Positions 6,001 to 9,000 of a stretch of DNA of 64,000 nucleotides are shown in pieces. A program made the position numbers. Within the stretch, counting starts at the first letter, position 1. Every line of letters begins with the position of its first letter. The DNA is from Escherichia coli (GTDB taxonomy: Bacteria > Pseudomonadota > Gammaproteobacteria > Enterobacterales > Enterobacteriaceae): NCBI RefSeq assembly GCF_036507355.1, contig NZ_AP027877.1; one strand, written 5' to 3'.

Positions 6001-9000
6001 ATGATTGTAAGTTTTCAGCGGCTTTTTCGCCGAGATATTTCCTTGTTAACTCTGGGGAAATGCCATCTGAGTTCACACAAATATACGGGTCGCAAACAAC
6101 GCCGCACGCCGGAGATTGAAGTCCGCCAGCGTCATTTCCAGACACCATTGATGAGAACATCATCCCCACACCTGACAATCCGATATAAAAAATACGCATC
6201 ATATTCATAGCACATCCTGATAATCCAACCGTACAACACTTATGCTCATTTCATCATCAATCCGTAATCAAAACCGCTGACCTGGACGAGTTACGATGAC
6301 CTGACAGAAGTATCAGACGTCTTCTGCGGTTTCTATGATAGAGCAATTCTGTGGCGGATATTAAGATAACGGGTATCTGTTCTTTAATGATGCTGCAAAA
6401 AATGGAAAGTTAAGAAAGCCTGGCGTGGTGAAAAAATACACTTGCCTCAATACTGGATATTTAAACAGATCTAAAGATGCTGTCACGATTAGGGTGCGGA
6501 AAAAGGAAGCGTAAATAAGAACAATCAAAAGTACGACGGCAATGGGTTGATTGACAAGGGTATTTTTTAAGCTATGAATCAGCGCCATTTATCACAGAAT
6601 AGACTTTTACTCTGAATAAATGGGAGGGTGACTTGCCTCAATATAATCCAGACTATAACATGCCTTATAGTCTTCGGAACATCATCGCGCGCTGGCGATG
6701 ATTAATAGCTAATTGAGTAAGGCCAGGATGTCAAACACGCCAATCGAGCTTAAAGGCAGTAGTTTCACTTTATCTGTGGTTCATCTGCATGAGGCAGAAC
6801 CTAAGGTTATCCATCAGGCGCTGGAAGACAAAATCGCTCAGGCCCCCGCATTTTTAAAACATGCCCCCGTTGTACTCAACGTCAGTGCACTGGAAGACCC
6901 GGTAAACTGGTCAGCGATGCATAAGGCGGTTTCGGCAACCGGTTTGCGGGTTATTGGCGTAAGTGGCTGCAAAGATGCGCAACTTAAAGCCGAAATTGAA
7001 AAGATGGGGCTGCCTATCCTGACGGAAGGAAAGGAAAAAGCGCCGCGTCCAGCTCCCGCATCGCAGGCTCCAGCGCAAAATACAACGCCGGTCACAAAAA
7101 CGCGTTTAATTGATACCCCGGTGCGTTCCGGTCAGCGTATTTATGCTCCACAATGTGATCTGATTGTTACAAGCCACGTTAGCGCTGGGGCCGAATTGAT
7201 TGCCGATGGGAACATTCATGTCTATGGCATGATGCGCGGTCGTGCGCTTGCAGGGGCAAGTGGTGACCGGGAAACGCAAATATTTTGTACGAACCTGATG
7301 GCGGAATTGGTGTCCATCGCAGGTGAATACTGGCTGAGTGATCAAATCCCAGCAGAATTTTATGGCAAAGCGGCGCGACTGCAGTTAGTCGAAAACGCTT
7401 TGACCGTTCAACCGTTAAATTGATCCCTTTTTAACAAGGAATTTCTATGGCACGCATTATTGTTGTTACTTCGGGCAAAGGGGGTGTTGGTAAGACAACC
7501 TCCAGCGCGGCCATCGCCACTGGTTTGGCCCAGAAGGGAAAGAAAACTGTCGTGATAGATTTTGATATCGGCCTGCGTAATCTCGACCTGATTATGGGTT
7601 GCGAACGCCGGGTCGTTTACGATTTCGTCAACGTCATTCAGGGCGATGCAACGCTAAATCAGGCGTTAATTAAAGATAAGCGTACTGAAAATCTCTATAT
7701 TCTGCCGGCATCGCAAACACGCGATAAAGATGCCCTCACCCGTGAAGGGGTCGCTAAAGTTCTTGATGATCTGAAAGCGATGGATTTTGAATTTATCGTT
7801 TGTGACTCCCCGGCAGGGATTGAAACCGGTGCGTTAATGGCACTCTATTTTGCAGACGAAGCCATTATTACCACCAACCCGGAAGTCTCCTCAGTACGCG
7901 ACTCTGACCGTATTTTAGGCATTCTGGCGTCAAAATCACGCCGCGCAGAAAATGGCGAAGAGCCTATTAAAGAGCACCTGCTGTTAACGCGCTATAACCC
8001 AGGCCGCGTAAGCAGAGGTGACATGCTGAGCATGGAAGATGTGCTGGAGATCCTGCGCATCAAACTCGTCGGCGTGATCCCAGAGGATCAATCAGTATTG
8101 CGCGCCTCTAACCAGGGTGAACCGGTCATTCTCGACATTAACGCCGATGCGGGTAAAGCCTACGCAGATACCGTAGAACGTCTGTTGGGAGAAGAACGTC
8201 CTTTCCGCTTCATTGAAGAAGAGAAGAAAGGCTTCCTCAAACGCTTGTTCGGAGGATAAGTTATGGCATTACTCGATTTCTTTCTCTCGCGGAAGAAAAA
8301 CACAGCCAACATTGCAAAAGAACGGCTGCAGATTATTGTTGCTGAACGTCGTCGCAGCGATGCAGAACCGCATTATCTGCCGCAGTTGCGTAAAGATATT
8401 CTTGAGGTCATTTGTAAATACGTACAAATTGATCCTGAGATGGTAACCGTACAGCTTGAGCAAAAAGATGGCGATATTTCTATTCTTGAGCTGAACGTGA
8501 CCTTACCGGAAGCAGAAGAGCTGAAATAAGCCCGCTGTAAAAGCGCATTTATCTTCAAGGCAGAGTTATCTCTGCCTTGAGTTTTTCATCCCTCTCATCC
8601 ACTTTGTGGTAAAGCGGCGAGTATTCTTGCTGATACTCCTCATTGCTATTTCCACCTCCCCCTTTACACCTTAAGGCTGTTCCCACGCACAAAACAAAAT
8701 GTTTATGCCTGGTTGAGTAAATAACCTTATTGTTAGTATGGATATACTGGGAGATGATAACCCCGCAATTTCATTATTCATTGTTCTCCCATAGGATGAG
8801 GTTTCCCGCCGTAACTGGCGGGCTTTTTTTACCCCAGAATTTTCTCTTTTAACCTCCTGTAAACGAAAACTGTGCCGAAGTGCAGTTTAATCGTTGATGG
8901 TCAGAACGACCAGTTCACACCAGCCACCGCGTTCCACGGGGATTCCACACCGGCACCGTTGCTATACCCCACCCCGAGATGCCCGCTTAACGTACTGCTG

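What the first reader, a model, noticed from the sequence alone, without database searches (positions are those of the whole stretch)
8587..8830. Orphan intrinsic terminator about 280 bp downstream of minE with no annotated gene in front of it
After the min operon terminator (8556-8586) there is a second strong plus-strand terminator (8805-8830: cccgcc-gtaact-ggcggg then T7). The interval contains only very short ORFs, for example a 19-codon ORF at 8739-8798 with no obvious ribosome binding site. This could be a small RNA or small-protein transcription unit, or simply a fail-safe terminator. Evidence is weak.
Basis: inference. Interest (0 to 1): 0.3.

Follow-up and report, generated by a model that had tools for sequence, protein, structure and literature searches.

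The report
Candidate small RNA downstream of minE
The 'orphan' terminator closes a short non-coding stretch, found only in Escherichia and unusually conserved, which published Hfq interaction data already flag as a likely but unnamed small regulatory RNA; this makes it a modest new member of a well-known class, not just a back-up terminator or a small-protein gene.

Summary
A second strong plus-strand intrinsic terminator (hairpin 8805-8822, then C+T7 to 8830) lies 276 nt after the minE stop, and RefSeq annotates no gene there.

The roughly 60 nt that end in this terminator (8765-8821) form an island of conservation. They are identical between E. coli and E. albertii, while both flanks are only 33-71% identical. 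They are also identical in 78% of 5316 E. coli genomes, against 29% for the adjacent 66 nt.

Conservation does not follow the 18-codon ORF (true coordinates 8738-8794). It has no Shine-Dalgarno sequence, its N-terminal half varies, and it is frameshifted in about 10% of genomes.

Published K-12 data fit a small RNA. RNA 3' ends map to the T2 U-tract. Hfq RIL-seq lists 'minE.ycgI.IGR' with 137 chimeric fragments, 5 partners, always second in the chimera, and a U-tract of 7. Its stationary-phase sRNA score is 0.276, similar to northern-verified sRNAs.

Read-through from the min operon appears to be stopped earlier. A C-rich tract sits at 8620-8700, and a Rho-termination region peaks at 8744.

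Best reading (about 0.55): a low-abundance, stationary-phase, Hfq-binding sRNA gene restricted to E. coli and E. albertii. Its 5' end, promoter and targets remain unresolved. It is a new member of a known kind, of modest interest.

The parts
8554..8586 (+). T1, the intrinsic terminator of the minCDE operon (12-bp stem, T5).
   Evidence: Scan. Hairpin energy -17.6 kcal/mol. Term-seq 3' ends in K-12 at 1224224/5, which is window 8583-8584. TRS 3' terminus at 1224216-1224229.
8620..8700 (+). C-rich, G-poor tract that looks like a Rho-utilisation (rut) site. The Rho-dependent stop zone for T1 read-through follows it, at about 8710-8744.
   Evidence: C/G ratio of 2.9-4.4 in 60-nt windows. Adams 2021 lists a Rho-termination region peaking at K-12 1224064(-), which is window 8744, with Rho score 24.9 and p 3.6e-67. 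RNAtag-seq 3' terminus at 1224090-1224098, which is window 8710-8718. Calling it a rut site is an inference.
8730..8758 (+). Inferred weak sigma-70-type promoter: -35 TTGTTA (8730-8735), 17-nt spacer, -10 GATGAT (8753-8758). The predicted start is near G8765.
   Evidence: My PWM gives 8.2 bits, in the top ~0.2% of window positions. The -10 hexamer is invariant in the E. coli haplotypes apart from one singleton, while the spacer carries most of the polymorphism. This is not demonstrated. Competing weak candidates exist (TATACT 8743-8748; TGnTAGTAT 8731-8739), and the E. albertii orthologue scores poorly.
8738..8794 (+). It is probably not a gene.
   Evidence: It has no SD. The start codon is ATG or GTG depending on the strain. 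D2G, I3T and I3M variants occur. A 1-nt deletion at 8761 shifts the frame in the ST131-type allele (557 genomes) while the downstream nucleotides stay conserved.
8765..8804 (+). Conserved body of the candidate sRNA. The predicted stem is 8767-8775 paired with 8795-8803. The ~19-nt loop AUUCAUUGUUCUCCCAUAG contains an anti-Shine-Dalgarno/anti-AUG motif (CAUUGUUCUCCC is the complement of GGGAGAACAAUG).
   Evidence: A 57-nt run of perfect identity with E. albertii (8765-8821), with flanks at 33-71%. The core is identical in 4143 of 5316 E. coli genomes, against 1564 of 5316 for the 66 nt upstream. Fold. The structure and the seed are predictions; no covariation is available.
8805..8830 (+). T2, the intrinsic terminator of the candidate sRNA (6-bp GC stem, 6-nt loop, then C + U7). 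It would also serve as the Hfq-binding 3' module.
   Evidence: -12.3 kcal/mol. A 3' terminus at 1223975-1223982, which is window 8826-8833, appears in the TRS re-analysis of the Dar & Sorek Term-seq data, class 'IGR minE.ycgI.IGR'. The RIL-seq U-tract feature is 7, which matches T2 and not T1.
8868..8889 (-). Context only: the terminator hairpin of the convergent autotransporter gene (8901-12212, minus strand). It is not part of the unit.
   Evidence: Sequence. Hairpin energy is -13.7 kcal/mol for the K-12-type sequence and -3.5 kcal/mol in this strain.

Best explanation
The interval holds a small non-coding RNA gene of about 65-90 nt on the plus strand. It ends at T2 (3' end in the U-tract, about 8826-8833). 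Its functional body is the invariant 8765-8830 segment. That segment folds as a first hairpin whose ~19-nt loop carries a C/U-rich anti-Shine-Dalgarno/anti-AUG sequence, followed by a GC-rich terminator hairpin with a 7-U tail, which is the typical Hfq-binding 3' module. The RNA is barely made in exponential phase and accumulates in stationary phase. There it sits on Hfq and base-pairs with a handful of mRNAs, most likely at their ribosome-binding sites.

Transcripts that read through the min terminator T1 are mostly stopped by Rho upstream of the unit. The RNA is therefore probably made from its own weak promoter (inferred: TTGTTA-17-GATGAT, start near 8765). Alternatively, it is cut out of rare longer transcripts.

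What is shown: the terminator, the conservation island, 3' ends at T2, and Hfq-RIL-seq chimeras with 5 partners. What is inferred: the 5' end and promoter, the fold, the seed, and any regulatory outcome.
For: 1. T2 is a strong one-directional terminator.
2. There is a conservation island. Positions 8765-8821 are 100% identical between E. coli and E. albertii, against 33-71% in the flanks and 88-94% in minCDE coding sequence.
3. Across E. coli genomes the core is identical in 78% and never below 95%, whereas the neighbouring 66 nt are identical in only 29% and are 90-95% in 38%.
4. Among 45 haplotypes, polymorphism is dense on both sides and nearly absent from 8753 to 8817. Positions 8777-8801 were fixed by the search pattern, so they do not count as evidence.
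5. Conservation ignores the ORF. It continues 27 nt past the stop codon and survives a frameshift.
6. A TRS re-analysis of Term-seq (BW25113, exponential LB) calls a 3' terminus at K-12 1223975-1223982, which is the T2 U-tract, on the minE strand.
7. Table S1 of Bar et al. 2021 lists 'minE.ycgI.IGR' in the Hfq RIL-seq network. In stationary phase it has 137 chimeric fragments, 5 unique partners, a Second-In-Chimera (SIC) score of 0.8 (meaning second in 100% of chimeras) and a U-tract of 7. Its sRNA score of 0.276 lies between the northern-verified AllZ (0.295) and FadZ (0.202) and above Spot 42 (0.228). In exponential phase the score is 0.028 with 12 fragments.
8. Read-through from min is dealt with before the unit, through the C-rich tract, the Rho region peaking at 8744 and the 3' ends at 8710-8718.
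Against: 1. No northern blot, TSS or 5' end was available to me.
2. Adams 2021 Term-seq (LB OD 0.4 and 2.0, and M63) lists no 3' end at T2. In the Dar & Sorek re-analysis only 2 of 3 replicates support it.
3. 137 chimeric fragments is low compared with established sRNAs (RybB has 1526 in the same sheet).
4. The authors did not test or name this candidate.
5. No promoter reaches the tool's consensus threshold. My best candidate is weak, is not clearly kept in E. albertii, and has its -35 hit by T8731C in some B2-type haplotypes.
6. Phylogroup-B2-type alleles carry damaging changes. G8818A weakens the T2 hairpin from -12.3 to -5.1 kcal/mol (348 genomes), and C8790A lies in the predicted seed (557 genomes).
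7. The predicted fold is not better than shuffled sequence (z = -1.5), and no covariation exists.
8. The element is absent outside E. coli and E. albertii.
Confidence: 0.55

Rival explanations
1. T2 is a back-up or insulating terminator. It is the last of three barriers (T1, Rho, T2) that keep min-operon read-through from running antisense into the convergent autotransporter gene. The Hfq-bound RNA is then just the stable 3' fragment of rare read-through transcripts and has no regulatory role.
For: T2 lies on the min strand between two convergent transcription units. Read-through past T1 exists and is Rho-sensitive: the Rho score is 24.9, and downstream coverage rises from 18 to 571 reads with bicyclomycin. 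T2 3' ends are rare in exponential phase. Any RNA that ends in a hairpin plus U7 will bind Hfq to some extent.
Against: A terminator needs only the hairpin and the U-tract, yet the 40 nt upstream of the hairpin are the most conserved non-coding bases of the locus. K-12 and most strains have lost the autotransporter except for a 344-nt remnant but keep the core unchanged. The RNA is always the second partner in chimeras with 5 different RNAs, which is the signature of a regulator and not of a by-product. The Rho stop zone lies upstream of the unit.
Confidence: 0.25
2. The unit is a small-protein gene (18 aa, MDILGDDNPAISLFIVLP), or a dual-function RNA that encodes the peptide as well.
For: The ORF is kept in E. 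albertii with a GTG start and three synonymous third-position changes in its first half (GAT>GAC, ATA>ATT, CCC>CCT). ATG and GTG alternate among E. coli strains, and both are valid start codons.
Against: There is no Shine-Dalgarno sequence. Non-synonymous variants are common (D2G, I3T, I3M, and G5R/D6N/N8I in E. albertii). The ST131-type allele (557 genomes) has a 1-nt deletion that replaces the whole conserved C-terminal half, yet the nucleotides stay conserved. There are no synonymous changes in the last 10 codons, and identity continues 27 nt beyond the stop codon, which points to RNA- or DNA-level constraint. The other ORFs of the interval are not called as genes anywhere in the protein collection. 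The 18-aa peptide itself was too short to look up. It is not among the small proteins of VanOrsdel 2018 Table 1.
Confidence: 0.05
3. The conserved core is a relic or a DNA-level element. It could be the 3' end and terminator of a gene lost when the autotransporter island was acquired, or a protein-binding or recombination site. The conservation would then reflect recent shared ancestry or gene conversion and not RNA function.
For: The interval and the autotransporter travel together. Both are present in E. coli and E. albertii and absent in the cryptic-clade Escherichia loci L004, L006 and L008 and in strain GN4738. Flanking divergence is unusually high, which suggests a recombination-prone region.
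Against: Recent transfer would also have homogenised the flanks, but they are 33-71% identical. The element is single-copy, with no paralogues, no genuine plasmid copies and no viral copies. It is transcribed to a defined 3' end and is found on Hfq. I saw no match to matS or Chi by inspecting the sequence myself; no tool was used for this.
Confidence: 0.1

Closest known systems
Intergenic Hfq-dependent base-pairing sRNAs of E. coli with a Rho-independent terminator (for example RybB and Spot 42).
   Same: It is short and non-coding, and it ends in a GC hairpin with a U-tail of at least 7. The conserved single-stranded segment plus terminator is the most conserved part. It is found on Hfq as the second RNA in RIL-seq chimeras with several partners, and it is enriched in stationary phase.
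   Different: It has no Rfam family and no mapped promoter, regulator or target. Its abundance is much lower (137 chimeric fragments, against 1526 for RybB and 556 for Spot 42 in the same sheet). It is restricted to E. coli and E. albertii instead of being conserved across enterobacteria.
RIL-seq-predicted sRNAs verified by northern blot in Bar et al. 2021 (AllZ, KilS, FadZ, XylZ).
   Same: They come from the same data set and the same scoring scheme. The stationary score of 0.276 falls within their range (0.154-0.346). As with AllZ, KilS and BhsB, it has only a few partners and about a hundred to a few hundred chimeric fragments.
   Different: Those RNAs were probed and shown to depend on Hfq; this one was not tested or named. 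Most of them derive from 3' UTRs or from within operons, whereas this one lies in a true intergenic region behind the operon terminator.
3'-UTR-derived sRNAs processed from the parent mRNA (for example SdhX, CpxQ, UhpU).
   Same: The functional part is the last ~60 nt including the terminator. The 5' boundary of conservation (8765-8769) lies next to an RNase E-like site (AA|UUU), so a processed 5' end is possible. This is an inference.
   Different: It is separated from minE by a strong terminator (T1) and a Rho-dependent stop zone, so it does not share the parent mRNA's terminator.
Tandem or fail-safe terminators downstream of operons.
   Same: It is a second terminator on the same strand, about 220 nt after the first hairpin, between convergent genes.
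   Different: Fail-safe terminators have no need for a conserved upstream sequence or for Hfq-mediated RNA-RNA contacts.

Membership tests
Hfq-dependent trans-acting sRNA | Rho-independent terminator with a long 3' U-tail (the Hfq-binding module). | tested here: met
   A 6-bp GC stem of -12.3 kcal/mol, followed by C + U7.
Hfq-dependent trans-acting sRNA | Physical association with Hfq. | tested here: met
   This rests on published RIL-seq (Hfq co-IP) data only. 'minE.ycgI.IGR' appears with 137 chimeric fragments in stationary phase and 12 in exponential phase, with U-tract feature 7. There is no delta-hfq northern.
Hfq-dependent trans-acting sRNA | A discrete transcript with defined 5' and 3' ends. 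| tested here: inconclusive
   A 3' end at the T2 U-tract is called in one Term-seq re-analysis, in 2 of 3 replicates. It is absent from the Adams 2021 curated 3' ends. The 5' end is unknown, and the TSS supplements I could reach held nothing for this region.
Hfq-dependent trans-acting sRNA | Base-pairing with several target RNAs through a conserved seed. | tested here: inconclusive
   There are 5 unique partners, and the RNA is second in all chimeras, but I could not retrieve the partner identities or pairing sites. The loop has an anti-SD/anti-AUG motif. No matching site occurs in the 64-kb window.
Hfq-dependent trans-acting sRNA | Selective conservation of the seed and terminator relative to the flanks. 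| tested here: met
   A 57-nt run of perfect identity with E. albertii against 33-71% in the flanks. The population contrast is 78% against 29% of genomes identical.
Hfq-dependent trans-acting sRNA | Own promoter, or defined processing from a precursor. | tested here: inconclusive
   Only weak promoter-like sites were found (best 8.2 bits), and none passes the consensus scan.
Any curated Rfam RNA family | A covariance-model match at or near the gathering score. | tested here: not met
   The best overlapping hit is anti-hemB at 12.9 bits against a gathering score of 49.5, E = 5.3.
Small-protein gene | A start codon with a ribosome-binding site, and an ORF preserved across strains. | tested here: not met
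   There is no SD. The ORF is frameshifted in 557 genomes, and the N-terminal half carries non-synonymous variants.
Small-protein gene | Evidence of translation. | not testable with these tools
   No ribosome-profiling or tagging data were reachable. The ORF is not among the proteins in VanOrsdel 2018 Table 1.
Type I toxin-antitoxin locus | A hydrophobic toxin ORF with an overlapping antisense RNA, usually in several copies per genome. | tested here: not met
   The element is single-copy. The ORF is not conserved. No evidence for an antisense transcript was found, although only 3'-end tables were examined.
Fail-safe (tandem) terminator of the min operon | It terminates transcripts that escape the primary terminator, and it needs nothing beyond the hairpin and U-tract. 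| tested here: inconclusive
   Read-through past T1 exists, but Rho stops it near 8710-8744, upstream of T2. The extra conserved 40 nt are not explained by this role.

The most novel reading that the evidence does not exclude
A young sRNA confined to one lineage. It arose, or was acquired together with the neighbouring autotransporter island, in the common ancestor of E. coli and E. albertii. It uses a loop-borne anti-Shine-Dalgarno/anti-start-codon seed to repress a small stationary-phase regulon through Hfq. It is now being lost or re-tuned in phylogroup B2 (Nissle, ATCC 11775, ST131), where the terminator or the seed carries lineage-specific mutations. If this is right, it offers a natural series of alleles for studying the birth and decay of an sRNA next to the cell-division min operon.
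Probability: 0.4. Interest if true: 0.45.

Novelty: new member of a known kind. Interest (0 to 1): 0.35.

Why it matters
E. coli K-12 is the best-annotated bacterial genome, yet this locus has no feature in RefSeq and no Rfam family. If the RNA is confirmed, it adds one more Hfq-dependent regulator to the stationary-phase network. It would also be a clean example of a recently evolved sRNA limited to two species, with natural loss-of-function-like alleles in clinically important B2 lineages. In practical terms, it shows that an 'orphan terminator plus conservation island' can be recognised from sequence alone and then matched to public RIL-seq and Term-seq tables. This is not a new mechanism.

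Tried and rejected
- **Rfam.** An E-value-mode scan of 8200-9200 returned only chance-level hits.
- **Named small proteins.** ymgK, ymgL and ymgM (VanOrsdel 2018) lie at other loci.
- **Literature.** Searches for a named sRNA or gene downstream of minE found none. The only item was UTI89_C1358, an over-annotated 'conserved gene of unknown function' mentioned in PMC6206680.
- **TSS supplements.** The Cappable-seq and SMRT-Cappable-seq supplements held no entries for this region. Thomason 2015 is not in the library.
- **Homologues outside Escherichia.** Of the 80 minE loci fetched from genome contigs, mostly other Enterobacteriaceae genera, only E. albertii (L003) matched the unit, by both blastn and nhmmer; L005 (Escherichia sp. 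MOD1-EC7003) matched only the 5' part of the interval (window 8531-8682).
- **Paralogues and mobile copies.** The element is single-copy per genome. The 'plasmid' hits are non-mobilizable records (about 90 kb up to genome-sized), probably mis-assigned chromosomal sequence (not checked). There are no viral contigs.
- **Metagenome scan.** All 74 loci carry E. coli-like or E. albertii-like sequence over the ~380 nt examined, so no new genomic context turned up.
- **Gene calls for the other ORFs.** The 32-45-aa ORFs of the interval are not in the 15-billion-protein collection. The 18-aa ORF is too short for the look-up.
- **Neighbouring autotransporter as a target.** Its translation-initiation region ranks 61st of 111 in duplex energy, and no seed-complementary site exists in the window.
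- **Long-range pairing.** The pairing of 8593-8600 with 8795-8802 seen in the fold of the whole interval was rejected, because the 5' partner lies in the poorly conserved part.
- **GGGAGA/UCUCCC stem (8750-8755 with 8785-8790).** It was rejected because E. albertii changes only the 5' side.
- **Covariation analysis.** It is not possible, because the core is invariant.
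Full report
**Locus and observation**

The window carries the Escherichia coli minCDE operon on the plus strand (minC 6713/6728-7423, minD 7447-8259, minE 8263-8529). A convergent 1103-aa autotransporter gene lies on the minus strand (8901-12212). RefSeq names its counterpart in other strains 'adhesin-like autotransporter YpjA/EhaD'. K-12 keeps only a 344-nt remnant of it, ycgI.

The consensus scan confirms both plus-strand terminators.
- T1: stem 8554-8581 plus T5, -17.6 kcal/mol.
- T2: CCCGCC-GTAACT-GGCGGG at 8805-8822, then C+T7 to 8830, -12.3 kcal/mol.

T2 is one-directional, because the minus-strand hairpin has no U-tail. RefSeq annotates nothing in the 371-nt spacer in any of the E. 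coli records inspected. Rfam finds nothing.

**Distribution**

The spacer is present in 5419 of 5426 complete E. coli genomes, and the T2-proximal part in 5315 of them. It is single-copy. The 13 'plasmid' hits are non-mobilizable records (about 90 kb up to genome-sized), probably mis-assigned chromosomal sequence. There are no viral hits.

Of the 80 minE loci fetched from genome contigs, mostly other Enterobacteriaceae genera, only E. albertii carries a recognisable counterpart of the unit; L005 (Escherichia sp. MOD1-EC7003) matches only the 5' part of the interval, window 8531-8682. Loci that appear to be cryptic-clade Escherichia (L004, L006, L008) and E. coli GN4738 lack both the spacer and the autotransporter.

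**Conservation island**

I aligned the window with E. albertii and measured identity by segment.

| Segment | Identity to E. albertii |
|---|---|
| minC | 88% |
| minD | 94% |
| minE | 90% |
| T1 region | 63% |
| 8587-8650 | 33% |
| 8651-8712 | 60% |
| 8713-8764 | 71% |
| 8765-8823 | 97% |
| 8824-8900 | 56% |

Positions 8765-8821 form a 57-nt run of perfect identity. This is the fourth-longest run in the 4.4-kb alignment; the three longer ones lie in or adjoin minD (7413-7484, 7492-7572, 7750-7814).

Within E. coli the 66-nt core (8765-8830) is identical to the window in 4143 of 5316 genomes and never falls below 95%. For the adjacent 66 nt (8699-8764), 1564 genomes are identical, 1709 are 95-99% identical and 2043 are 90-95% identical.

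Among 45 distinct haplotypes (RefSeq samples plus 74 metagenome loci), variable sites are dense on both sides. They number 56 of 89 alignment columns for 8651-8729 and 84 of 93 for 8831-8906. They almost vanish between 8753 and 8817. Positions 8777-8801 were fixed by the search pattern, so they do not count as evidence.

**The conservation is not protein-coding**

- The start codon alternates between ATG and GTG.
- Residues 2, 3, 5, 6 and 8 vary (D2G, I3T, I3M; G5R, D6N and N8I in E. albertii).
- The ST131-type allele has a 1-nt deletion at 8761. It puts the whole conserved half into another frame while the nucleotides stay the same. Exactly this allele occurs in 557 genomes.
- Identity also runs 27 nt beyond the stop codon.
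- The other ORFs of the interval are not called as genes anywhere in the protein collection.

**Published transcript data**

I calibrated the coordinate mapping with the minE CDS coordinates (K-12 1224279-1224545) and the T1 3' end. Window position = 1,232,808 minus the K-12 NC_000913.3 coordinate, and the unit is on the K-12 minus strand. There are no indels between K-12 and the window across the spacer.

- **Adams et al. 2021, Term-seq.** It finds the T1 3' end (1224224/5) but no end at T2 in three conditions.
- **Adams et al. 2021, bicyclomycin experiment.** It lists a Rho-termination region peaking at 1224064, which is window 8744. Upstream/downstream reads are 230/18 untreated and 293/571 treated. 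The Rho score is 24.9 and p is 3.6e-67.
- **Sequence context.** Positions 8620-8700 are C-rich and G-poor, with a C/G ratio up to 4.4, as expected of a rut site.
- **TRS re-analysis (PMC10687069).** It reports a 3' terminus at 1224090-1224098, which is window 8710-8718, in RNAtag-seq of exponential MG1655. In the Dar & Sorek Term-seq data it reports a 3' terminus at 1223975-1223982, which is window 8826-8833 and therefore the T2 U-tract. That terminus is classed 'IGR, minE.ycgI.IGR' and is supported in 2 of 3 replicates.

Read-through from min is thus largely stopped by Rho before the conserved unit, yet some RNA does end at T2.

**Hfq evidence**

Table S1 of Bar et al. 2021 gives features of every RNA in the Hfq RIL-seq networks. 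It contains 'minE.ycgI.IGR' three times, and two of the three rows were displayed. I identified the two displayed sheets by matching scores to the paper's Table 2.

| Sheet | sRNA score | Chimeric fragments | Unique partners | Second-In-Chimera (SIC) score | U-tract |
|---|---|---|---|---|---|
| Stationary phase | 0.276 | 137 | 5 | 0.8 | 7 |
| Exponential phase | 0.028 | 12 | 1 | 0 | 7 |

By the paper's definition SIC = S - 1/k, so a SIC of 0.8 with 5 partners means the RNA was the second member in all chimeras. A U-tract of 7 matches T2 and not T1, which has 5.

The stationary score sits between the known sRNAs RybB (0.292) and Spot 42 (0.228). It also falls within the range of the candidates the authors verified by northern blot (AllZ 0.295, XylZ 0.346, FadZ 0.202, KilS 0.154). 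This RNA was not among the eleven they tested. No paper in the held library names an sRNA here.

**Anatomy and mechanism (inference)**

The invariant 66 nt fold into two hairpins.
- The first stem pairs 8767-8775 with 8795-8803. It encloses a ~19-nt loop, AUUCAUUGUUCUCCCAUAG.
- The second hairpin is the terminator.

Part of the loop, CAUUGUUCUCCC, is the exact complement of GGGAGAACAAUG, which reads as a Shine-Dalgarno sequence plus a start codon. The natural prediction is translational repression at ribosome-binding sites.

The fold is not significantly better than shuffled sequence (z = -1.5), and there is no covariation. The structure is therefore only a prediction.

The 5' end is unresolved. 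The sharp start of conservation at 8765 fits a weak promoter, TTGTTA (8730)-17-GATGAT (8753). It scores 8.2 bits, in the top 0.2% of window positions. Its -10 is invariant and its spacer holds most of the local polymorphism. The same boundary equally fits an RNase E-type cut at AA|UUU (8768/8769). Other weak promoter candidates exist, such as TATACT at 8743-8748, and none is clearly conserved in E. albertii.

**Counter-evidence**

- Abundance is low, and a curated Term-seq set has no T2 end.
- B2-type alleles look impaired. G8818A plus one extra T (348 genomes, including Nissle 1917 and ATCC 11775) weakens the hairpin to -5.1 kcal/mol. The ST131-type allele carries C8790A inside the predicted seed.
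- The neighbouring autotransporter mRNA is not a favoured pairing partner (rank 61 of 111), and no seed-complementary site occurs in the window.

**Verdict**

The most likely explanation (about 0.55) is an unnamed, low-abundance, stationary-phase, Hfq-binding small RNA gene restricted to E. coli and E. albertii.

| Rival | Confidence |
|---|---|
| Mere back-up or insulating terminator whose 3' fragment happens to bind Hfq | about 0.25 |
| Relic or DNA-level element | about 0.1 |
| Small protein | about 0.05 |

It would be a new member of a very well-known class, and high-throughput data already hint at it. Interest is therefore modest.

Noticed in passing
window ~12254-13000+ (minus-strand view): An IS1 copy lies about 40 nt upstream of the autotransporter start codon (12212, minus strand). 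Its terminal repeat is GGTGATGCTGCCAACTTACTGAT at ~12254-12276. It may cut the gene off from its native promoter or supply an outward-reading one.
   Followed up: partly
window 8868-8889: The terminator hairpin of the autotransporter gene carries two substitutions in this strain (also in ES5). They drop the minus-strand hairpin from -13.7 kcal/mol (K-12-type sequence, UUCG loop) to -3.5 kcal/mol. On the plus strand the same changes leave G-U wobble pairs.
   Followed up: partly
window 8620-8744: A C-rich, G-poor tract coincides with a published Rho-termination region that has a very high Rho score (24.9). With bicyclomycin, downstream coverage (571 reads) exceeds upstream coverage (293 reads). 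This suggests Rho-silenced transcription that starts in or beyond the spacer, not only read-through from min.
   Followed up: partly
window 9851-9905: A GGGTTT/GGATTT repeat encodes the NPNPNP...DPTPDPTP linker of the autotransporter. It produces most of the spurious 'terminator-like' hits in the scan.
   Followed up: no
L001 4372-4715; L088/L089; window 8901-12212: The autotransporter at this locus is intact in the window strain and in some ETEC strains. In K-12 and many other strains it is reduced to a 344-nt 3' remnant (ycgI), while the upstream spacer is retained.
   Followed up: partly
L004, L006, L008 (3265-3760); L090 2501-2830: Loci that appear to be cryptic-clade Escherichia, and E. 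coli GN4738, run from minE (with a different terminator in the former) into ymgI/ymgG-like genes. They lack both the spacer unit and the autotransporter. The unit and the autotransporter therefore behave as one insertion/deletion block.
   Followed up: partly
L005 3400-3474: In Escherichia sp. MOD1-EC7003 the spacer is homologous up to about window 8680, then diverges, and the contig ends. This may be an insertion-sequence junction.
   Followed up: no
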